Under the pieces are notes generated by a model that was given only the letters and a program-made list of their open reading frames with translations, was not told the DNA's origin and did no database searches. A stretch of DNA of 64,000 bases from an uncultured Veillonellaceae bacterium (GTDB lineage Bacteria > Bacillota > Negativicutes > Selenomonadales > Selenomonadaceae), in contig OMZR01000001.1 in assembly GCA_900315575.1 (NCBI GenBank), positions 16,071 through 80,070 on the forward strand, in the 5' to 3' direction. Position 1 is the stretch's first letter. Every line of letters starts with the position of its first letter. Position numbers and translations under genes: made by a program. Positions 6,701 to 30,800 of this stretch are shown piece after piece.

Positions 6701-7996
6701 ATGAGCGAAGAGAGAAAGTACCACTTTGAGACGCTGCAGCTGCATGTCGGCCAGGAAGAGGCTGATCCCGCGACGGATGCGCGCGCCGTGCCGATCTACC
6801 AGACGACGAGCTATGTGTTCCGCAACTGCCAGCATGCCGCTGACCGTTTCGGCCTGAAGGATGCGGGCAACATCTACGGCCGTCTGACGAACCCGACGGA
6901 GGATGTGCTCGAGAAACGCCTCGCGGCGCTCGAAGGCGGCGTCGCGGCGCTCGCGTTCGCATCCGGCGCGGCGGCAGTCACGGCAGCCGTTCAGGGGCTC
7001 GTCCATGCGGGCCAGCACATCGTCGCGGCCACGACGATCTACGGTGGCACGTTCAACCTCTTCGAGCACACGTTCCCCGATTTCGGCATCGAGACGACGT
7101 TCGTCGATCCAACGAAGGGCACGCAGGTCTTCGAGGATGCCATTAAGGACAACACGCAGATCATCTACATCGAGTCCGTCGGCAATCCGAACGCGAACCT
7201 CATCGACATCGAGGCTGTCGCGAAAATCGCGCATGCGCACAAGATCCCGCTCGTTGTCGATTCCACGTTCGCGACGCCGTACCAGCTGCGCCCGTTCGAC
7301 TACGGCGCGGACATCGTCGTGCATTCGGCGACGAAGTTCATCGGCGGCCACGGCACGACGCTCGGCGGCGTCGTCATCGACAGCGGCAAATTCGACTGGG
7401 CGGCGTCGGGCAAGTTCCCGTGGCTCGTCGAGAAGAACGTCAGCTACCACGGCCTGAGCTTCGCGAAAGACATTGGCGCGGCGGCGTTTGTCGTCTATCT
7501 GCGTGCGCTGCTGCTGCGCGACACGGGCGCGACGATTTCGCCGTTCAATGCGTTCCTGCTGCTGCAGGGCGTCGAGACGCTGTCGCTGCGCGTCGAGCGC
7601 CATGTCGAGAACGCGCTCAAAGTCGTCGACTACCTCGCGAAGAATCCGCATGTTGAGAAGGTCAATCATCCGGCCATCCCCGACCATCCGGATCACGAGC
7701 TTTACAAAAAATATTTCCCGAATGGCGGCATCTCGATCTTCACGTTTGAAATCAAGGGCGGCGCCGAGGCGGCAAAGAAGTTCATCGACCACCTCAAAGT
7801 CTTCTCCCTGCTCGCAAACGTCGCCGACGTCAAATCGCTCGTCATCCAGCCGGCGTCCACGACGCACTCCCAGATGAGCGAAGAAGAGCTCCTCGCCTCC
7901 GGCATCACCCCGTCGACGATCCGCCTCTCCATCGGCACGGAGCACATCGACGACATCATCTACGACCTCGACCAGGCGTTCGAGGCACTCGATTAA
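6701..7996 (+). CDS. metY: O-acetylhomoserine aminocarboxypropyltransferase / cysteine synthase (PLP-dependent)
   Basis: [85 protein letters not shown] lies 8 nt upstream of the ATG at 6701. Confidence 0.9.
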
Positions 7997-8018
7997 AAAT
8001 ATTTGGACATACTGAAAT

Positions 8019-8054
8019 GGGACGACCGCAAAAACGCGATCGCCCCGTTTTTTT
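8019..8054 (+). terminator. rho-independent terminator after metY
   Basis: Imperfect GC-rich hairpin GGGACGACCGC/GCGATCGCCCC followed by T8. Confidence 0.55.
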
Positions 8055-8241
8055 TGAGTGAACAACAAATTCTCCATTGCGCAGGTGTTTGTTAATCGTC
8101 TCGTGGTATCCTATGGCAAGCTAAAGAAACCGCGAACAAGAAAGGAAATCGACATGGCAGACGGACACATATTTTCAAGAAAAAGCATTGCTCGTCGGTG
8201 AGCGAACTGTGTGAGAAGTGTGGCGCAATAGGGAGGAGCTT

Positions 8242-11200
8242 ATGATCACAAAAGATAATTTGAGACAAGTTTTAGATGCCATCGGCTTCCAGCAGAATTC
8301 ACTTGGCATATATGAAAAGACGTATTCAATCTTTGACTGCTGCATCGCGGTGGACTTTCAGCACGAAATCATCCAGTATCCGGAAGATCATGGCATGAAA
8401 ATTGAACGGCATACAACGGATAATTTCGCGAAACCGGAGAATTTCGTCGTGCTGGAATGTGTCGACCGTCTGCTGACGAAAGGCTATCGACCGGAAGATA
8501 TTGAGCTCGAACGAAAATGGACGCTCGGCCATATGACATCGGGCAGTGAAGATAGTGGATTTGCAGATATTTGCGTTTTTCGGCAGACGTCGGACGGCAA
8601 GGAGAAGAAAGATGGCGAGGCGCGTCAACCTCTTTTCATCATTGAGTGCAAGACTGCAGGCAAGGCGTATAAAAAAGAATACAATAATATGCTGAGTGAC
8701 GGCGGGCAGTTGTTCAGTTACTGGTGGCAGGAGCATAGTTGCAAGTTTCTTGTCTTATATGCATCTGATTTTGAGCATGGAGCGGTAACTTACGTTACGG
8801 ATAGCGTCGATTGTAACGATGATAAAAATCTCTTGGTGATGGCAGAGAAAGCGAAGAAAGCACGGAGGGATGATACGATTCATCTTTATTGCGACGCAAA
8901 GAGCAAAGAGGAACTCTATACATGCTGGGACGAGACATATGACCGGCGTTTCTGTGGAGATGTCATCTTCCGCGATGATTCCGTGGCCTATGAAATCGGA
9001 GCGAAGCCGTTACGAAAGCGTGACCTTGACGATTTCAGCAAGAATGACAAGGTCGTGAACCGATTTGAAGAAATTTTGCGACACAATAACGTTTCCGACA
9101 AGGAGAATGCATTCAACCGTCTTATCGCGCTCTTCATCTGTAAGCTCGTTGATGAGATGCAGAAGCAAGAAGATGACGTGGTCGATTTCCAGTACAAGGT
9201 TGGAACGGATACTTACGAGACACTGCAAGACCGTTTGCAACGGTTGCACAAGGACGGCATGGAAAAATTCATGCGAGAGGAAATCTTCTATGTGCCGGAC
9301 ACATATGCAGAAAATGTCGTGCAGCAATTCACGGGGGCACAACGCGGCCAGTTGGTTGCGGAACTTAAGAAGACATTGCGCATCTTGAAGTTCTATACGA
9401 ATAATGACTTCGCGTTCAAGGATGTGCACAATGAAGAACTGTTTTATCAAAATGGCAAGATTGTCGTGGAAGTCGTTCAGCTGTTTCAAGGGTATCGTAT
9501 CATCGGCTCGTCAGACCTCCAGACACTTGGTGATCTGTTCGAGCAACTGCTGAACAAGGGCTTCAAGCAGAACGAGGGACAATTTTTCACGCCCGTTCCT
9601 ATCACACGCTTTATCTGGGATAGCCTGCCACTTCGCACGTTCGTTCAGAAAGATGGCCGCATTGAATATCCGAAGATCATCGATTACGCTTGCGGAGCAG
9701 GCCATTTTCTTACGCAGGGCATCGAGGCCGTTCGCGAACTGTTGACGGAGGGTAAAGATAAAAATGGAGACGAAGCATGGGTGAGCGATCATGTATATGG
9801 TGTGGAAAAAGATTACCGACTTGCTCGCGTGTCAAAGATTTCGCTCTTCATGCATGGTGCTGGCGACGCGAATGTTATTTTTGGCGACGGGCTGGAGAAT
9901 TACCGTGAGAAAGGCATTGCGCCGGGGACGTTCGATATCCTTGTCGCAAATCCGCCGTATGCCGTCAAATCATTTAAAAGCCACTTGAAGCTTCACGACA
10001 ACGACTTTCGCTTGCTCGATGCTATCTCGAACGATGGCGGTGAGATTGAGACGTTGTTCGTTGAGCGCATTGCACAGCTTTTGAAACCGGGCGGCCTCGC
10101 CGCAGTCATTCTTCCGTCGTCCATTCTCAGCAAAGATTCTGGCAGTTGCAATGGGGCGCGCGAAGAATTGTTACAGCATTTTTACATCCACGCTATTACG
10201 TGCTTTGGTGGAAAGACGTTCAGTGCAACGAACACGGATACGGTCGTTCTGTTCCTGCAAAAAATCAAAGAACCACCTATCCGTTTTCGTCTCGTCGCTG
10301 ACAGCGCCGATGCCATATTGTCAGGTAGGCCACTTTCCGATTGGGAAGATGAGAAGATTTTCGCACAATATTTGGCGCAGGTGGAATGTAGCGAAGAAGA
10401 CTATCGGAAATTCCTTGCAGAAACCATGCCTTATACGAATTTCGTCGAAACGCCGTACTTTCGAAATTATGTTGATGCGTTTGAGAATCTTGCTGAAACG
10501 AAAAACAAGCGCCGGCAGAAATCGTTTCAGAACATGAATGTCGAGGAACAATCTGCATGGCTCAACCAGCGTTTTTATACGCTCGTGAAGGAGCGAGAGC
10601 GGGAAAAATTGCGCTACTTTGCTATGGTCTATCAGCAAACAGTTCTTGTCATCACGGCCCCTGTGGAGAACAAAAAACAAAAAAGTTTCTTGGGATATGA
10701 TTGGACAAATCGTAGGGGAAACGAAGGGATCGTCATCCTCAACGAAGGCGGAATGTTATATAATCCTCAAAATCGTTCAGCACGGGATACATTTGCTGCT
10801 CTAATTCGTTCGACGTTCGAACATACGCAAGCTATAACTGAATATCCGAAAGAATATTATAAGTATTTTCCGCTCAAGGATATGATTGATTTTACGCGGA
10901 TTGATTTCAATAAATCTATTCGGACGACGGGGGTCAATCGGATGAAGCTGTCAAGCAAGTACCCGTTGAGACAACTGACAGATTTTGTAGATGTTATTCG
11001 TGGCGTGACATATGATAAGACGGATCAGGTTTTGGATGAAACCCCGAATGTTATCTTAACGGCTGACAATATTACGCTTGACGGTCATTTCGAAGTGTCA
11101 AAAAAGATTTATCTTCGCGAGAACAAAATAATTCCTGATGAAAAACGGTTGAAGGACAAGGATTGTTTCATATGTTTTTCGAGCGGAAGTTTGCAACATA

Positions 11201-11565
11201 TTGGAAAAGTAGCGTATATTTCCGGTGACACGAAGTATTATGCTGGCGGATTTATGGGGATTCTGAGACCGAAAGCAAAGGATGAAGTTCCGCAATATAT
11301 TTACTTTGTATTAAATACACCGTTCATGCGAGATTATGTCCGTAATGATGCCGCAGGTGCGAACATCAAGAACTTATCGAATCAGATAGGAAAGATAAAA
11401 ATTCCTGTTCCGCCAGTGGAAATCCAAAAGAAGATAGTTGACGAGTGCGTGGAGATTGAAGGAGAATATCAAACGACGCGAATGGCGATTGACGATTATC
11501 GCGCTCGTATTGAAGTCCTCTTCCAAAAGTTTGATGTAATCGGGGGGGGAGACAATAAAGCTTGA
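8242..11565 (+). CDS. fused restriction endonuclease / N6-adenine DNA methyltransferase / specificity (TRD1) protein, type IIB/IIG-like; truncated relative to the reading frame restored at the G8 tract
   Basis: N-terminal PD-(D/E)xK-like nuclease signature (ADICVF ... PLFIIECK at 8641..8652). Methylase motifs DYACGAGHFL and LVANPPYAV (NPPY at 9949..9960). C-terminal HsdS-like TRD (LRQLTDFVDVIRGVTYDK ... IKIPVPPVEIQKKIVDE). RBS GGGAGGAG lies upstream of the ATG at 8242. Confidence 0.85.
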   Translation: MITKDNLRQVLDAIGFQQNSLGIYEKTYSIFDCCIAVDFQHEIIQYPEDHGMKIERHTTDNFAKPENFVVLECVDRLLTKGYRPEDIELERKWTLGHMTSGSEDSGFADICVFRQTSDGKEKKDGEARQPLFIIECKTAGKAYKKEYNNMLSDGGQLFSYWWQEHSCKFLVLYASDFEHGAVTYVTDSVDCNDDKNLLVMAEKAKKARRDDTIHLYCDAKSKEELYTCWDETYDRRFCGDVIFRDDSVAYEIGAKPLRKRDLDDFSKNDKVVNRFEEILRHNNVSDKENAFNRLIALFICKLVDEMQKQEDDVVDFQYKVGTDTYETLQDRLQRLHKDGMEKFMREEIFYVPDTYAENVVQQFTGAQRGQLVAELKKTLRILKFYTNNDFAFKDVHNEELFYQNGKIVVEVVQLFQGYRIIGSSDLQTLGDLFEQLLNKGFKQNEGQFFTPVPITRFIWDSLPLRTFVQKDGRIEYPKIIDYACGAGHFLTQGIEAVRELLTEGKDKNGDEAWVSDHVYGVEKDYRLARVSKISLFMHGAGDANVIFGDGLENYREKGIAPGTFDILVANPPYAVKSFKSHLKLHDNDFRLLDAISNDGGEIETLFVERIAQLLKPGGLAAVILPSSILSKDSGSCNGAREELLQHFYIHAITCFGGKTFSATNTDTVVLFLQKIKEPPIRFRLVADSADAILSGRPLSDWEDEKIFAQYLAQVECSEEDYRKFLAETMPYTNFVETPYFRNYVDAFENLAETKNKRRQKSFQNMNVEEQSAWLNQRFYTLVKEREREKLRYFAMVYQQTVLVITAPVENKKQKSFLGYDWTNRRGNEGIVILNEGGMLYNPQNRSARDTFAALIRSTFEHTQAITEYPKEYYKYFPLKDMIDFTRIDFNKSIRTTGVNRMKLSSKYPLRQLTDFVDVIRGVTYDKTDQVLDETPNVILTADNITLDGHFEVSKKIYLRENKIIPDEKRLKDKDCFICFSSGSLQHIGKVAYISGDTKYYAGGFMGILRPKAKDEVPQYIYFVLNTPFMRDYVRNDAAGANIKNLSNQIGKIKIPVPPVEIQKKIVDECVEIEGEYQTTRMAIDDYRARIEVLFQKFDVIGGGDNKA
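11542..11549 (+). repeat. homopolymeric G8 tract at the junction of the RM fusion gene and the downstream TRD ORF
   Basis: The sequence cgggggggga was counted directly. The stop TGA at 11563 follows in the current frame. The alternative frame is open from the tract into ORF 11585..12061. Confidence 0.95.
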
Positions 11566-11584
11566 TGCAACGGACAAATTCCAG

Positions 11585-12061
11585 ATGACCATCGGCAAGC
11601 GCGTCTTGAGTTCCGAGCTTCTGCCAACTGGCATTCCCGTGTACAGCGCAAACGTGCAAGAGCCGTTCGGGTATATCCGTGCATCATTTTTCAAGGATTA
11701 TAATGTTGGCACGATCCTTTGGGGGATTGATGGGGATTGGGATGTTCGTTACATCCCGCCGCAGATGCCGTTCTATCCGACAGATCATTGCGGGACGTTG
11801 CGAGTACAGGCCACTGATGTCAATGCGCGTTACCTTGCTTTTGCGCTCCATGCCGAAGGGGAACGCCGGCGCTTTACACGGACAAATCGTCCGTCACTCG
11901 ATCGCGTGCGAGCGTTGCGGTTGGAGCTGCCACCTAAGCAACAGCAGGATGTTTTCGTCAACGAAGTTGAACGCATGGAATCCCAAATTGCAAAGTTGGA
12001 AGAAAAGCGAAAGATGCTGGAAGGAAAGAAGCAGGGGATTTTGAAAAAGTATTTGTTGTAA
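11585..12061 (+). CDS. HsdS-like target recognition domain (TRD2) plus coiled-coil tail; probably the detached C-terminus of the upstream RM protein
   Basis: MTIGKRVLSSELLPTGIPVYSANVQEPFGYI ... RPSLDRVRALRLELPPKQQQDVFVNEVERMESQIAKLEEKR is typical of a type I S-subunit half. The frame is open back to the G8 tract (..IKLDATDKFQ upstream of the ATG). Confidence 0.8.
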   Translation: MTIGKRVLSSELLPTGIPVYSANVQEPFGYIRASFFKDYNVGTILWGIDGDWDVRYIPPQMPFYPTDHCGTLRVQATDVNARYLAFALHAEGERRRFTRTNRPSLDRVRALRLELPPKQQQDVFVNEVERMESQIAKLEEKRKMLEGKKQGILKKYLL

Positions 12062-12195
12062 TCAAGCCTCTATCCGAATTCTCGCACGCACCAAAATAAA
12101 ATATCATCGCACGCCCAAAACAGCGTTCCTCCGTATTGAAGGATGCTGTTTTTTGTGTGTGGGGTCTGTCACTTCTTGTTATAGAGAGTGGGGAT

Positions 12196-13839
12196 TCAGG
12201 GAAGGAACGTTTCTTTCCAATCGGTAATCGTCCGTTCCTCCGGCGCATAGCAGAAGTTGATGCCGACGGCATGGATGGTCTGGCCTTTTTCGCGGGCGGG
12301 ACGGAGGTACTTTTCGGCGTAGGCTTTTTCATCAATCTGGGCGAGGGCGGCGTCTGCCGTTTTTTGGAGCTTGAACCCGAGGATGTAGAGATGTTTTCCC
12401 GCGTCGAGCACGGCATCGATGCGGCCTTTGTTCGTTACGACTTCTGTCAGGATGTCCATGCCGCAGAGGCGGCAGATGGTGTAGATGATGGACTGATAGT
12501 ATTTTTCCGCCTTGATCTGGATGTCGTAGGGGAGGCCGGCGAAGAAATCCTTCCAGACGTCCACCATATCCTCCGTGCGGCCGCTTTCTGCGGCTGAGAG
12601 GAGTTCATAGAGGTACTTTGTCGGACGGCGTGGAGCGGTGTAGGCACTGAGGAGTTCTCGCGCAAAGGAATAGGCGACTTCATGATTCGGGAAACGCATC
12701 TTGAAAAGGCGTTCTGGAAGTGTGGCGGCAAGCTGGTCGACGGTCAGATACCCTGTTTGGAAAAGCAGGTCGAGGATGCGCTCGTCCTCAACTTGTGTGC
12801 CTGCAAGTTCAGCGATGTCGAACGTATCCAGATAACTTTCGGAGAGCAACGTACCATCGATGTCAGGAACGGTCAGACAATTGCGCTTCAGGAGATTTAC
12901 GAGAAACGTTGGCGTTCCTGTCTCAAACCAAAAATTTTTAAAGGTATGATGATTGAGGAAAAATTTTCCGATTGAAATGGGATTGTAGACCGTTTCTGCG
13001 TTCTCCGAAAAACGAAAGCCGTCATACCAGAGCTTGATTTCCGTGAGGAGTTCAGTGCGGTTGAGGAGGCCGTCCTTGCTTAGAACAGCGTGGACGCCAT
13101 CTTTGACAGCCGCATCCAGCCAGGCAGAGAAGTTTGCTTCGAGCTCTTGCTGCGTGTAGCCGAACATGCAGGCGAATTCTGGACGCATGGTGATGTCCGT
13201 CAAGTGATTCAGCTTGCTGAAGACGGAGAGTTTTGCAATCTTTGTCACGCCCGTCAAAAATGTGAAGCGCAGGATGGGTTCGGCTCCTTTGATGATCTGA
13301 TAGAATGACGAAAGGAAATTGCGGTAGAGTTCCGCATCCTTGGCGTTGTCCAGATGCTCAAAGACCGGCTTGTCGTATTCATCGATGAGGAGGACAACTT
13401 CCGTGTCCGTTTTGTCATAGAGTGCGCGGATCAGCTTGTTGAAAAGCAGAGCAGGATCGTCATCCGTGAGTTTCAGTCCGTAACTTTTTGCAATCTCTTC
13501 CAGCTGGTAGCAGAGCGATTTCTGCAGCTGCGGCATCGTGTCCATGACGCATTGCGTGAAGTCGATATGGATGACGGGATATACCTGCCAGTCGTAATCG
13601 GCGCTGCCGAGATACAGCCCGTCAAAGAGCTCACGCCGGCCGCGGAAGACGGCTTCGAGTGTCGAGATGGTCAGGCTCTTGCCGAAGCGGCGCGGACGGG
13701 TGCAGAAGAACTGGCCTTTTGTGACTTTGAGCAGCTTGTAGATGTAAGCGGTCTTGTCGACGTAGAGGCAGTGGTTTTCGATGAGGTCGGAAAATGTGTA
13801 GACCGAGGTCGTGATTTCTTTCAGGTTCGTCGTGTCCAT
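12196..13839 (-). CDS. AAA-ATPase-like protein with C-terminal PD-(D/E)xK nuclease-like domain (AAA-ATPase_like/PDDEXK_9 architecture)
   Basis: The N-terminus YTFSDLIENHCLYVDKTAYIYKLLKVTKGQFFCTRPRRFGKSLTISTLEAVFRGRRELFDGL is the hallmark of this family. The C-terminus has GRIDAVLDAGKHLYILGFKL. Confidence 0.8.
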   Translation of the reverse strand: MDTTNLKEITTSVYTFSDLIENHCLYVDKTAYIYKLLKVTKGQFFCTRPRRFGKSLTISTLEAVFRGRRELFDGLYLGSADYDWQVYPVIHIDFTQCVMDTMPQLQKSLCYQLEEIAKSYGLKLTDDDPALLFNKLIRALYDKTDTEVVLLIDEYDKPVFEHLDNAKDAELYRNFLSSFYQIIKGAEPILRFTFLTGVTKIAKLSVFSKLNHLTDITMRPEFACMFGYTQQELEANFSAWLDAAVKDGVHAVLSKDGLLNRTELLTEIKLWYDGFRFSENAETVYNPISIGKFFLNHHTFKNFWFETGTPTFLVNLLKRNCLTVPDIDGTLLSESYLDTFDIAELAGTQVEDERILDLLFQTGYLTVDQLAATLPERLFKMRFPNHEVAYSFARELLSAYTAPRRPTKYLYELLSAAESGRTEDMVDVWKDFFAGLPYDIQIKAEKYYQSIIYTICRLCGMDILTEVVTNKGRIDAVLDAGKHLYILGFKLQKTADAALAQIDEKAYAEKYLRPAREKGQTIHAVGINFCYAPEERTITDWKETFLP

Positions 13840-21954: not shown

Positions 21955-23620
21955 ATGAAGAAGAAACATTCCAAGCCAGCGGGGCAGGCAAAGGTCCGCC
22001 GCATTGGCAAGGTGCTGCTGGACGCAACACAGGATCGTTCGCGCGATCAGTATAGCGACGGCGACATCGAGGCGGAGCTGCTTGCAGCTGTCCGTGCGGG
22101 GCGGCAGGATGAGATGCTGCGTCAGGATACGCGTTGGCCGGTGCTGTATCATTTTTCCGAGGAGCGGCAGAACGTTCTTTCGTGGCTGCCGCTGACGAAA
22201 GAGGAAGACGTTCTTGAGATCGGTTGCGGCTGCGGCGCGGTGACGGGGGCGATCTGCCGCCGTGCCGGGCATGTTGATGCCGTGGAGATTTCGCCGCGCC
22301 GTGCGGAGATCGCGGCCTGGCGCAACAAAGACTGTGCGAACCTCGTCATCCATGTCGGAAATCTCAATGACCTCGCGTTCGAACGGAAATATGATGTCGT
22401 CACGCTGATCGGCGTGCTCGAGTATGCCGGGACGTTCACGCATACGGCCGATCCCTATCATGATTTCCTCGCGCAGTGCCAGTCGTATCTGAAGCCTGGC
22501 GGCCGCCTCGTCATTGCGATCGAGAACCGCCTCGGCATGAAGTATTGGTCGGGTGCGCATGAAGACCACACGGGCCGCCGTTTTGACGGCATTCTGGATT
22601 ATCCGTGGGGGGGGAGACATCCGTACGTTTTCGCGGAAAGAGCTCTCTGGCCTGCTTGCGGGCGCTGGCTTTCCCATGCAGCAATGGTACTACCCATTCC
22701 CTGACTATAAGCTTCCGTTCGAGATCCATTCCGACCGCTTTTTACCGACGCCAGAAGAAATGAAGAGCTATGGGAACGCGACATTTGATGCTGACCGTTG
22801 GGAGGTCTTTTCGGAGCAAGCGGCACTGGCGAGCGTGATTCCTGCGGGGCTTTATCCGGAGTTTGCGAATTCATTCCTTGTCGTGTGCTCAGCTGATCGA
22901 CTGGATGAGGAGGCATTGCCTTGCTACGTTCATTTCGCGAAGAACCGCCCAAAAGCCTATCGCATTGGGACAGCCGTTTATGAGCAGGCGGGAACGCGGC
23001 GCGTGGAAAAATTCGCACGGACGCTAGAGGCACGTGCGCATCTTGCAGCCATTGCAGAAAATGGTGTTGCCCTTGAGGCACTTTATGGAAAAGAGATGGT
23101 GGCGGCTTCTCGACTGCGTTCGTCAGATGTGCTTGTCTGTGATTATGCCGAAGGGATGTCGTTTACGTCGTTTTGTCTGCAATCCATCCGAGAGAGAGGC
23201 CTGGATGGGTTTCTTGACTGCTTGAATTTTTTTGCGGCATATCTTGTGCGGGGCAGTGAGACGCCTGTGCCGACGGGGATGGGCTGGCATCAGCCCGGAC
23301 GCCGCTACGATGTCGACCTGACGTTTGACAATGTCATCGTGCAGGGAGGATCTCTTAAGATTATCGATTATGAGTTTCTTGGGCAGCAACGCTGCCAGCT
23401 TTATGCAATCCTCCATGCACTGGCTGTTTTCCGTGAACGTTATGAATCCGTTTGGCTCTCGATGGGGCTCGATTTAGAAATGAAGTATTTTCGGGAGGCG
23501 TATCAGGTAACGCAGACAGAGTGGGAGGCGTTTTATCGTGATGAGAGCGCCTTTTACGCAGGCCTTTATGAGTCCATTATGGCACGCTACAAGCGTGAGC
23601 GAAGGCCGTGGCAGCCGTGA
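21955..23620 (+). pseudogene. class I SAM-dependent methyltransferase with large C-terminal domain, split into two frames at a G8 tract (phase-off state or assembly error)
   Basis: The first frame gives VLEIGCGCGAVTG ... YLKPGGRLVIAIENRLGMKYWSGAHEDHTGRRFDGILDYPWGG, then junk and a stop at 22704. The second frame continues with GDIRTFSRKELSGLLAGAGFPMQQWYYPFPDYKLP... to 23620. Confidence 0.8.
22607..22614 (+). repeat. homopolymeric G8 tract at the methyltransferase frameshift
   Basis: atccgtggggggggagac, with eight G counted across 22607..22614. Confidence 0.95.
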
Positions 23621-30715: not shown

Positions 30716-30800
30716 CAGCCCCCCCCCTCATTGAGGGGGGACGGGCCCGAAGGGCGGGGGGAGTAGTTGGGTGCTGGAGCCTGACAAATCATCGCTTCCC
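30716..30800 (+). repeat. family-A head plus fragment of the composite-element core
   Basis: CAGCCCCCCCCTCATTGAGGGGGGACGGGCCCGAAGGGCGGGGGGAGTAGTTGGGTGCTGGAG. The last part matches the reverse complement of 39172..39190. Confidence 0.75.

What the first reader, a model, noticed from the sequence alone, without database searches (positions are those of the whole stretch)
11520..11600. G8 tract truncates a fused nuclease-methylase-specificity restriction enzyme; loss of one G would re-attach the second TRD (candidate phase-variable RM / phasevarion switch)
Seen: the 1107-aa ORF (ATG 8242) reads ...FDVIGGGDNKA-stop through cgggggggga (G8 at 11542..11549). In the frame reached by deleting one G the sequence reads IGGETIKLDATDKFQMTIGKRVLSSELLPTGIPVYSANV... 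with no stop and runs straight into ORF 11585..12061. That ORF is a typical HsdS-type TRD plus coiled-coil tail. By my count a G7 allele would encode a single 1272-aa protein from the ATG at 8242 (about 1,280 aa from the ORF-track start at 8218), with the order nuclease, gamma-class methylase (NPPY), TRD1, TRD2. This is the organisation of type IIB/CjeI-like enzymes. Established: poly-G slippage in such genes drives ON/OFF or specificity switching and epigenetic phase variation in Campylobacter, Helicobacter, Neisseria and Haemophilus. I am not aware of such switches being described for Negativicutes. With G8 the enzyme keeps the nuclease, methylase and one TRD, which might change specificity rather than abolish activity.
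Basis: partly seen in the sequence, partly recalled or inferred. Interest (0 to 1): 0.7.

Follow-up and report, generated by a model that had tools for sequence, protein, structure and literature searches.

The report
Poly-G switch in a restriction enzyme
A run of eight G's cuts the second DNA-reading domain off a large all-in-one restriction-modification enzyme of a pig-gut Selenomonas, wild strains carry both the cut (G8) and the intact (G7) version, and the same slippery run recurs at this spot in related enzymes of many gut bacteria, so it is a real length-variable switch of a known general kind in a new setting.

Summary
G8 (11542..11549) ends the 1107-aa ORF, and removing one G gives a 1272-aa nuclease / N6A-methylase / TRD1 / TRD2 protein.

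That predicted G7 protein exists in nature. P0131 is identical to it and lies at the same locus in four independent gut metagenomes. G8 is the commoner allele (roughly 74 versus 13 contigs). G7 and G8 each occur on two strain backgrounds, one G7 contig showing 0 SNPs over 4.1 kb from G8 contigs, so tract length changed at least twice.

The tract encodes the Gly-Gly loop between the central coiled-coil helix and TRD2 of an HsdS-like module. In nine other homologue lineages G8 to G12 tracts sit at this same junction, most of them out of frame. Nowhere else in these genes is a G/C run longer than 6. One other lineage shows all three reading frames.

This is the Type I hsdS/NgoAV logic (a repeat between the TRDs) in a single-chain Type IIB-like enzyme. 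Whether the truncated form is active with a symmetric specificity, and whether any regulon is controlled, is untested. The same population also carries irreversible knock-outs of the gene. A second G7/G8-polymorphic tract splits a methyltransferase gene at 22607.

The parts
8242..11565 (+). G8-allele ORF, 1107 aa: nuclease, N6-adenine methylase, TRD1, central coiled-coil helix, then GGGDNKA and stop
   Evidence: The exact protein P0122 is on 42 contigs.
8560..8652 (+). PD-(D/E)XK-type nuclease motif region (FADICVF ... IIECK, aa 107-137)
   Evidence: Read from the sequence. These columns are nearly invariant in the 45-sequence alignment.
9682..9960 (+). Methylase motif I (DYACGAGHF, aa 481) to motif IV (NPPY, aa 570-573), gamma-class order
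   Evidence: Pfam N6_Mtase 9e-32 and Eco57I 2e-11. Positions.
10966..11406 (+). TRD1 (aa 909-1055)
   Evidence: Pfam Methylase_S 910-1067. AF2 model of the 86%-identical homologue. Matches to HsdS structures.
11416..11535 (+). Central conserved coiled-coil helix CR1 (aa 1059-1098), fully retained in the truncated protein
   Evidence: AF2 helix 179-218 of the fragment, pLDDT about 93.
11542..11549 (+). Poly-G tract (G8 here, G7 in other strains). It encodes the Gly-Gly loop (VIGG) between CR1 and the first strand of TRD2.
11563..11565 (+). TGA stop reached in the G8 frame, 4 codons after the tract
11549..12061 (+). TRD2 plus C-terminal coiled-coil helix CR2 (aa 1103-1272 of the G7 protein; CR2 about 11936..12055). 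[quoted passage not shown]
   Evidence: P0121 is on 65 contigs. All 3 within-species SNPs here are synonymous in this frame.

Best explanation
The gene encodes a horizontally acquired, single-polypeptide restriction-modification-specificity enzyme with the TstI/AloI-type (Type IIB) layout: PD-ExK nuclease, gamma-class N6-adenine methylase, and an HsdS-like module of TRD1, coiled-coil helix CR1, TRD2 and coiled-coil helix CR2.

The codons for the Gly-Gly loop between CR1 and TRD2 form a pure G run that slips during replication. G7 gives the complete 1272-aa enzyme. By analogy with two-TRD enzymes (inferred), it would read an asymmetric bipartite site, TRD1 half-site, spacer, TRD2 half-site. G8, the state in this window, and G9 both stop within 2 to 4 codons after the loop and give an enzyme of 1105-1107 aa that keeps the nuclease, the methylase, TRD1 and the whole CR1 helix.

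Shown here: both alleles circulate in the species, tract length changed repeatedly on different strain backgrounds, TRD2 stays intact and under purifying selection, and the same junction carries G8-G12 tracts in many unrelated homologues.

Inferred: the change is reversible and frequent enough to count as phase variation. Also inferred: the truncated protein pairs through CR1 with a second copy, as NgoAV half-HsdS and engineered M-half-S fusions do, and then recognises a symmetric TRD1/TRD1 site, so that the tract switches specificity rather than simply turning the enzyme off.
For: 1. P0131 (1272 aa) is identical to the predicted G7 fusion and sits at the same locus in 4 samples. G8 is in all 10 sampled contigs that carry the separate 158-aa ORF.
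2. All four combinations of SNP 9573 and tract length occur. L088 (G7) shows 0 SNPs over 4.1 kb from L091/L095/L097 (G8). L085-L087 (G7) lie on other backgrounds.
3. All 5 within-species SNPs in the gene are synonymous, including 3 in TRD2 read in the fused frame. dN/dS of TRD2 against L001 is 0.11.
4. The tract maps to the loop after a 40-residue helix in a confident model (pLDDT 88.8), and that model matches complete HsdS subunits (1ydx 5e-20; PacII S; BsaXI S).
5. Of 42 species-representative homologues covering the junction, 6 carry G8, G8, G9, G10, G11 or G12 there, in loci of 30-43% GC. The longest G/C run elsewhere in any of these genes is 6. Further cases: L109/L110 G8, L112 G9, L111 G12.
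6. Tract-bearing genes are interleaved with tract-less sisters on the tree, and the window's nearest relatives read GGTGGGATG, so there were at least 2 origins.
7. In the P0071 cluster, proteins at least 99% identical over the first 1070 aa end in all three frames: 1269 aa full length...NRGGV*, and ...NRGINSND*.
8. Precedents: NgoAV polyG between hsdS1 and hsdS2 switches GCAN8TGC to GCAN7STCA (PMC9577141). Repeats in hsdS genes always lie between the TRDs (PMC7383803). Half-HsdS and M-half-S fusions dimerise and are active (PMC6158711).
Against: 1. The tract is short. G7/G8 lies below the cut-offs usually applied to phase-variable homopolymers (9 in PMC7383803; more than 8 in PMC3936762), and no switching rate was measured.
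2. The closest relatives lack the tract.
3. About 85% of contigs carry the truncated allele.
4. The same population holds irreversible knock-outs: a 3350-bp deletion on at least 24 contigs, an IS-like insertion on 13, and another frameshift on 2. This fits relaxed or negative selection on the enzyme.
5. Two GGG Gly codons in a row would arise by chance in about 5% of Gly-Gly pairs at this gene's codon usage.
6. Activity and specificity of either form are unknown.
7. The direction of change (G7 to G8 only, or both ways) cannot be read from the data.
Confidence: 0.7

Rival explanations
1. Non-adaptive decay. The G run is only a mutational hot spot in a dispensable, horizontally acquired restriction gene. 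G8 is a loss-of-function frameshift that arose more than once, the truncated protein is inert, and the locus is on its way to being lost.
For: The truncated allele predominates. The deletion, IS-like insertion and second frameshift alleles occur in the same species. Gene GC is 46% against about 59-60% in the flanks, which marks it as an acquired island. The tract is short and absent from the nearest relatives.
Against: TRD2 is intact on more than 70 G8 contigs, and its 3 SNPs are all synonymous. G7 and G8 occur within one otherwise identical lineage. G8-G12 tracts lie at the same junction, and nowhere else, in low-GC homologues from several phyla. All three frames occur in another lineage.
Confidence: 0.22
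2. Split but complete enzyme. In the G8 state the 158-aa TRD2-CR2 peptide is translated on its own from ATG 11585 and joins the 1107-aa protein through the coiled coil, so specificity does not change.
For: An ATG is present 36 nt after the tract, the ORF is conserved on 65 contigs, and BcgI- and BsaXI-type enzymes do use a separate S subunit (PMC4027205).
Against: There is no Shine-Dalgarno-like sequence before 11585. The ATG that overlaps the stop (TGATG at 11563) is in the wrong frame and gives only a 7-codon ORF. The product would lack the first strand of TRD2 (aa 1103-1106). In NgoAV the equivalent hsdS2 gives no active protein (PMC9577141).
Confidence: 0.05
3. Sequencing or assembly artefact: the true tract is G7 and G8 is a homopolymer consensus error.
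For: Homopolymer errors are common in some platforms. A second G8 in the window also needs G7 to restore a gene.
Against: The exact G8 products are on 42 and 65 contigs from many samples and several assemblers. The G7 products are on separate contigs. The second tract likewise has both alleles on many contigs.
Confidence: 0.02

Closest known systems
NgoAV Type I system of Neisseria gonorrhoeae (polyG between hsdS1 and hsdS2)
   Same: A homopolymeric G tract lies right after TRD1 plus the central conserved region. One frame gives a truncated one-TRD specificity module and loss of one G fuses TRD2. Natural strains carry 6-9 G. The truncated form is common, and many strains have additional inactivating mutations (PMC9577141).
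   Different: [quoted passage not shown] Here the TRDs are fused to the nuclease and the methylase in one chain. NgoAV specificities were measured (GCAN8TGC against GCAN7STCA), whereas none is known here.
Simple-sequence repeats in Type I hsdS genes (REBASE survey, Atack et al., PMC7383803)
   Same: The repeats lie between the two TRD coding regions and are predicted to toggle between full-length HsdS and a dimerising half-HsdS. They occur in pathogens and non-pathogens.
   Different: [quoted passage not shown] Single-chain R-M-S enzymes were not examined.
TstI / AloI / PpiI single-polypeptide Type IIB enzymes
   Same: The domain order is the same (nuclease, N6A methylase, HsdS-like module with two TRDs) and so is the size: TstI is 1251 aa (PMC4027205) and this protein is 1272 aa. 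The G7 protein matches a 1271-position R-M fusion profile end to end (PADLOC PDLC03624, E 1.4e-289).
   Different: No repeat-mediated switching turned up for TstI or AloI in the papers I searched. Cutting on both sides of the site is untested.
Helicobacter pylori Hpy99XIV (JHP1272, Type IIG) and the BcgI-like HP1471/JHP1364 S subunit
   Same: In Hpy99XIV a second homopolymer decides whether an extra C-terminal recognition domain is attached, which changes the motif (GGWTAA to GGWCNA). The Type IIB S subunit carries a G13/G14 tract (PMC3936762).
   Different: Different enzyme families, and the extra domain is not an HsdS-type TRD2 joined by a coiled coil. H. pylori tracts are longer. The host is a pathogen with many such loci.
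HaeIV-type single-chain Type IIB enzymes acting as homodimers
   Same: It is a single polypeptide that associates as a homodimer (PMC4027205). This is the architecture predicted for the 1107-aa G8 product.
   Different: This is an analogy only, and no sequence comparison was made. The one-TRD layout and symmetric site of HaeIV are from my own knowledge and were not checked here.

Membership tests
Single-polypeptide Type IIB R-M-S enzymes (AloI/TstI-like) | N-terminal PD-(D/E)XK nuclease motif | tested here: met
   FADICVF ... IIECK at aa 107-137. These columns are nearly invariant in 45 homologues. The evidence is at motif level only.
Single-polypeptide Type IIB R-M-S enzymes (AloI/TstI-like) | Gamma-class N6-adenine methylase with motif I before NPPY | tested here: met
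   Pfam N6_Mtase 9e-32 and Eco57I 2e-11. DYACGAGHF at aa 481 and NPPY at aa 570. The best PDB match is RM.BsaXI, 3e-27.
Single-polypeptide Type IIB R-M-S enzymes (AloI/TstI-like) | C-terminal HsdS-like module with two TRDs and two coiled-coil helices in the same chain | tested here: met
   Met for the G7 allele: AF2 model with pLDDT 88.8 and Foldseek hits to full HsdS subunits and to the BsaXI S subunit. In the G8 allele of this window only TRD1 and CR1 remain attached.
Single-polypeptide Type IIB R-M-S enzymes (AloI/TstI-like) | Full-length agreement with the family (about 1250 aa) | tested here: met
   PADLOC PDLC03624 aligns 1-1271 of the protein to 1-1269 of a 1271-position profile, E 1.4e-289. 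Most of the 120 homologues listed are 1230-1270 aa. TstI is 1251 aa (PMC4027205). PADLOC labels the profile 'Type IIG'.
Single-polypeptide Type IIB R-M-S enzymes (AloI/TstI-like) | Cleaves on both sides of a bipartite site; SAM-dependent | not testable with these tools
   This needs enzyme assays.
Repeat-mediated phase-variable (contingency) locus | Homopolymer inside the reading frame whose length sets the frame | tested here: met
Repeat-mediated phase-variable (contingency) locus | Tract length differs among closely related strains, with repeated changes | tested here: met
   G7 in L085-L088 and G8 in L089-L098, at 98.9-99.99% identity. All four allele combinations occur, and there are 0 SNPs over 4.1 kb between G7 and G8 contigs.
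Repeat-mediated phase-variable (contingency) locus | High-frequency, reversible switching within a clonal population | not testable with these tools
   No reads or cultures were available. The direction of change is unresolved.
Repeat-mediated phase-variable (contingency) locus | Tract long enough by customary thresholds (at least 8-9 nt for G/C) | tested here: inconclusive
   G7/G8 here. Homologues carry G8-G12 at the same site.
NgoAV-type specificity switch (half-S against full S) | Repeat located between TRD1 plus the central helix and TRD2 | tested here: met
   The tract corresponds to loop VIGG (aa 1099-1102), after helix 1059-1098 and before strand 1103-1106.
NgoAV-type specificity switch (half-S against full S) | The truncated form is active and recognises a symmetric site | not testable with these tools
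   This needs a methylome or biochemistry. Early stops follow the tract in both off frames and in the homologues, which fits clean truncation.
Phasevarion (methylation-controlled regulon) | Switching changes genome-wide methylation and gene expression | not testable with these tools
   No methylome or transcriptome data were available.

The most novel reading that the evidence does not exclude
The Gly-Gly linker between TRD1/CR1 and TRD2 of single-chain R-M-S (Type IIB-like) enzymes is a recurrently evolved poly-G switch in gut and rumen commensals of several phyla (Selenomonas, Clostridia, Bacteroidales, Synergistaceae, Christensenella, Moraxella). It would flip a complete restriction enzyme between a two-TRD form reading an asymmetric site and a one-TRD homodimer reading a symmetric site. 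Each lineage would then alternate between two methylomes and two restriction barriers, and would have to survive exposure of its own unmethylated new sites at every switch.
Probability: 0.4. Interest if true: 0.72.

Novelty: new variant of a known kind. Interest (0 to 1): 0.58.

Why it matters
Repeat-driven switching of restriction-modification specificity has been worked out almost entirely in pathogens (Neisseria, Haemophilus, Helicobacter, Campylobacter) and in Type I, III and IIG systems. Here the same logic appears in a single-chain enzyme that carries its own nuclease, in an uncultured commensal Selenomonas of the pig gut. Both alleles are already visible in public metagenomes, and the same junction tract recurs across phyla.

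If the truncated form is active, these enzymes offer a natural two-state system for three purposes:
- studying how a cell survives a change of self-marking when restriction and modification sit in one protein;
- a source of within-strain methylome heterogeneity and shifting phage and plasmid barriers in gut communities;
- ready-made pairs of related specificities for enzyme engineering.

There is also a practical point. Annotation pipelines will call these genes frameshifted or split, which hides the switch.

Tried and rejected
- The GTDB species-representative scan did not contain the window's own genome (best match 62% identity), so it gave no same-species comparison. It did supply the cross-family data.
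- A pattern scan of JGI metagenomes for the tract flanks with a variable gap found nothing.
- No 100%-identical hit appeared in the first homologue search, which I first took to mean the protein was absent from the collection. The exact look-up showed that it is present.
- NCBIfam gave no family above its cut-off.
- The promoter and terminator scan of 7900..12300 was no better than shuffles.
- I considered translational coupling at TGATG (11563). I rejected it because that ATG is in the wrong frame and opens only a 7-codon ORF.
- I considered the G6 in L027 as a junction tract. I rejected it because it lies elsewhere, inside TRD2.
- The gut 'epigenetic phase variation' preprint (PMC11741434) does not mention repeats, Type IIB or Selenomonas.
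- The downstream AAA-ATPase_like/PDDEXK_9 gene has no PADLOC match and persists in the deletion allele, so I did not count it as part of the system.
Full report
**1. Observation**

The window reads ...gatgtaatcGGGGGGGGagacaataaagcttga..., with G8 at 11542..11549. The ORF from ATG 8242 (or GTG 8218) ends ...FDVIGGGDNKA* at 11565 and is 1107 aa. ORF 11585..12061 (158 aa) is in the +1 frame. Removing one G joins them into a 1272-aa protein that reads ...FDVIGGETIKLDATDKFQMTIGKRV... A G9 allele would stop after IGGGRQ.

Pfam finds N6_Mtase (427-677), Eco57I and Methylase_S (910-1067) in ORF1, and a weak Methylase_S match in ORF2. The nuclease motif FADICVF...IIECK, motif I DYACGAGHF and NPPY lie at aa 107-137, 481 and 570.

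A G8 alone is not unusual in this 58% GC window: 4 matches against 1.19 +/- 1.34 in shuffles, with 7 of 100 shuffles reaching 4.

**2. What the gene is**

The hypothetical G7 protein has thousands of homologues. Most of the 120 listed are 1230-1270 aa and many cover it end to end. The best are P0001 (86% identity, also 1272 aa) and P0002 (75%). PADLOC profile PDLC03624, an R-M fusion enzyme profile of 1271 positions, aligns over 1-1271 with E 1.4e-289. The best solved relatives are the RM subunit of the Type IIB enzyme BsaXI and the EcoKI S subunit.

I modelled aa 881-1272 of P0001 with AlphaFold2 (pLDDT 88.8). The elements, in the window protein's numbering, are:
- TRD1, aa 909-1055
- a 40-residue helix, aa 1059-1098
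- a 4-residue loop VIGG, aa 1099-1102
- TRD2, from aa 1103
- a second 40-residue helix, aa 1232-1271

Foldseek matches the model to complete HsdS subunits (1ydx 5e-20, 1yf2, PacII S) and to the BsaXI S subunit. So the intact state is a single-chain nuclease / methylase / two-TRD enzyme of the TstI/AloI layout (TstI is 1251 aa; PMC4027205). The G tract encodes the Gly-Gly loop exactly between the central coiled-coil helix and TRD2.

The gene has 46% GC in a region of 59-60% GC, which marks it as an acquired island. It lies between a Cys/Met PLP enzyme gene and an AAA-ATPase_like/PDDEXK_9 gene.

**3. Same-species evidence**

Exact look-ups place the window in an uncultured Selenomonas sp. from gut metagenomes. 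The 1107-aa protein (P0122) is on 42 contigs and the 158-aa ORF (P0121, WP_294146767.1) on 65.

The same 90% cluster holds P0131, which is 1272 aa and identical to my predicted G7 fusion. It lies on four contigs from four samples, with the same neighbours. In the DNA these four contigs have G7. Ten sampled contigs carrying the separate 158-aa ORF all have G8. Identity to the window is 98.9-99.99%. Fragmentary proteins spanning a fused junction add about 9 more G7 contigs, so the totals are roughly 13 G7 against 74 G8.

The strain backgrounds are as follows:

| Lineage | Members | Tract |
|---|---|---|
| 1 | window, L089, L090, L092-L094, L096 | G8 |
| 2 | L091, L095, L097 | G8 |
| 2 | L088 (0 SNPs over 4.1 kb from the three above) | G7 |
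| 3 | L085, L086 | G7 |
| separate | L087 | G7 |

All four combinations of SNP 9573 and tract length exist. Tract length therefore changed at least twice, and in lineage 2 it changed faster than any substitution accumulated in 4.1 kb.

All five within-species SNPs in the gene are synonymous, including three in TRD2 read in the fused frame. dN/dS of TRD2 against the 86% relative is 0.11. TRD2 is thus still being kept as coding sequence.

**4. Counter-evidence in the same population**

The gene is also destroyed irreversibly in some strains:
- A 3350-bp in-frame deletion (window 8334..11683) leaves a 153-aa remnant (P0128, at least 24 contigs, L105-L108).
- An IS-like sequence interrupts the gene after 9025 (P0125, 13 contigs, L099-L104).
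- A further frameshift truncates it at 592 aa (P0134, 2 contigs).

The full-length allele is therefore a minority state. The locus looks dispensable or at times counter-selected, much as reported for NgoAV, where 47% of strains carry additional inactivating mutations (PMC9577141).

**5. Family-wide evidence**

The nearest relatives (L001-L004) read ATC GGT GGG ATG at the site. The window's tract therefore arose by base changes that made the run pure, followed by slippage.

Among 42 species-representative homologues that cover the junction, six carry a tract there. Their loci have 30-43% GC:

| Locus | Organism | Tract |
|---|---|---|
| L033 | Clostridia | G8 |
| L039 | Bacteroidales | G8 |
| L055 | Christensenella | G9 |
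| L044 | Synergistaceae | G10 |
| L045 | Moraxella caprae | G11 |
| L038 | Prevotellaceae | G12 |

Five of the six are out of frame, and each is one G away from fusion. No other G/C run in any of the 42 genes exceeds 6. Three further cases came from the protein collection: G8 truncated (L109/L110), G9 truncated (L112) and G12 intact (L111).

On a tree of the R-M part, the tract-bearing genes sit on separate long branches next to tract-less sisters, and the window lies in a different clade. There were therefore at least two origins.

In the P0071 cluster, proteins at least 99% identical over the first 1070 aa end in all three frames: a 1269-aa full-length form...NRGGV*, and ...NRGINSND*.

Many full-length homologues have GG, GGG or GGGG at this linker. 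The loop supplies the raw material for a G run, and in many lineages the run has become long.

**6. Mechanism**

Shown: a length-variable homopolymer decides whether TRD2 and CR2 are attached. Both off frames stop within 2 to 4 codons, so the truncated product ends cleanly after a complete CR1 helix.

Inferred from established work:
- Half-HsdS proteins that keep the central helix dimerise and direct methylation of symmetric sites. NgoAV switches from GCAN8TGC to GCAN7STCA on loss of one G (PMC9577141).
- Engineered half-HsdS and M-half-S fusions are active (PMC6158711).
- Repeats in hsdS genes always lie between the TRDs (PMC7383803).

By analogy, the G8 protein would form a dimer with two nucleases, two methylases and two copies of TRD1, and would read a symmetric site. 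The G7 protein would read an asymmetric one.

An independently translated TRD2 is unlikely. There is no ribosome-binding site before ATG 11585, the ATG overlapping the stop is in the wrong frame, and the first TRD2 strand would be missing. Control of a regulon (a phasevarion) is pure conjecture at this point.

**7. Comparison and novelty**

The logic is the same as in NgoAV and in repeat-bearing Type I hsdS genes. It also resembles the second homopolymer of H. pylori Hpy99XIV, which attaches an extra recognition domain, and the G13/G14 tract in the BcgI-like S subunit HP1471 (PMC3936762).

Three things differ. The enzyme type is a single chain with nuclease, methylase and both TRDs. The hosts are commensal anaerobes, including a Negativicute; only one paper in the library holds both 'phase-variable' and 'Negativicutes', and it deals with invertons. 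And the tract recurs across phyla at one linker. I rate it a new variant of a known kind.

**8. Verdict**

Still open are the switching rate and its direction, the activity and specificity of the truncated form, and any regulatory role.

A second G7/G8-polymorphic tract at 22607 splits a methyltransferase gene in a polysaccharide locus. This suggests the species uses poly-G tracts more widely.

Noticed in passing
window 22607..22614 (genes about 21958..22704 and 22559..23620): A second G8 splits a class I SAM methyltransferase gene next to a Caps_synth glycosyltransferase gene. Deleting one G gives a 554-aa protein whose methylase fold runs across the tract. Both states exist in nature: the split products are on 44, 36 and 5 contigs, the exact predicted G7 fusion (P0182) on 11, and other 554-aa variants on more.
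   Followed up: partly
window 8334..11683; loci L105-L108: A 3350-bp in-frame deletion allele of the restriction gene leaves a 153-aa remnant (first 31 aa joined to the last ~122 aa, P0128). It is on at least 24 contigs of about 98-99% identical strains.
   Followed up: yes
window 9025/9026; loci L099-L104: In 13 short contigs the gene matches the window up to 9025 and then continues as GGGAATGTCAATAGTTTTGTGTAAATTTTTCAG... This looks like the end of an insertion element at which the assemblies break. The element was not identified.
   Followed up: partly
window 8242..12061 against its flanks: The restriction gene has 46% GC, against 59-60% in the 8 kb on either side. This indicates horizontal acquisition.
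   Followed up: no
L004 1894..5712 compared with window 10900..12061: The pig-gut homologue P0002 shares TRD2 (84% aa identity) but has an unrelated TRD1 (20%). This is a TRD swap, as seen in specificity diversification.
   Followed up: no
window 30719..30727: The C9 (G9 on the minus strand) is the 3' arm of a cccccc-tcaatga-ggggggggg hairpin. It lies downstream of a gene with a MutS domain V and upstream of a sodium:alanine symporter gene. It looks like a terminator-type stem rather than a coding tract.
   Followed up: partly
L109 705..1501, L112 1049..1465, L111 1..99: Several homologues have small HTH (XRE-type) genes just upstream of the R-M-S gene, possibly controller proteins. None is present upstream in the window.
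   Followed up: no
cluster of P0071 (L112 and related contigs): In another lineage, proteins at least 99% identical over the first 1070 aa end in all three reading frames at the junction tract: 1269 aa, 1078 aa and 1081 aa. Two of the contigs differ in length by one base, 5583 against 5584.
   Followed up: partly
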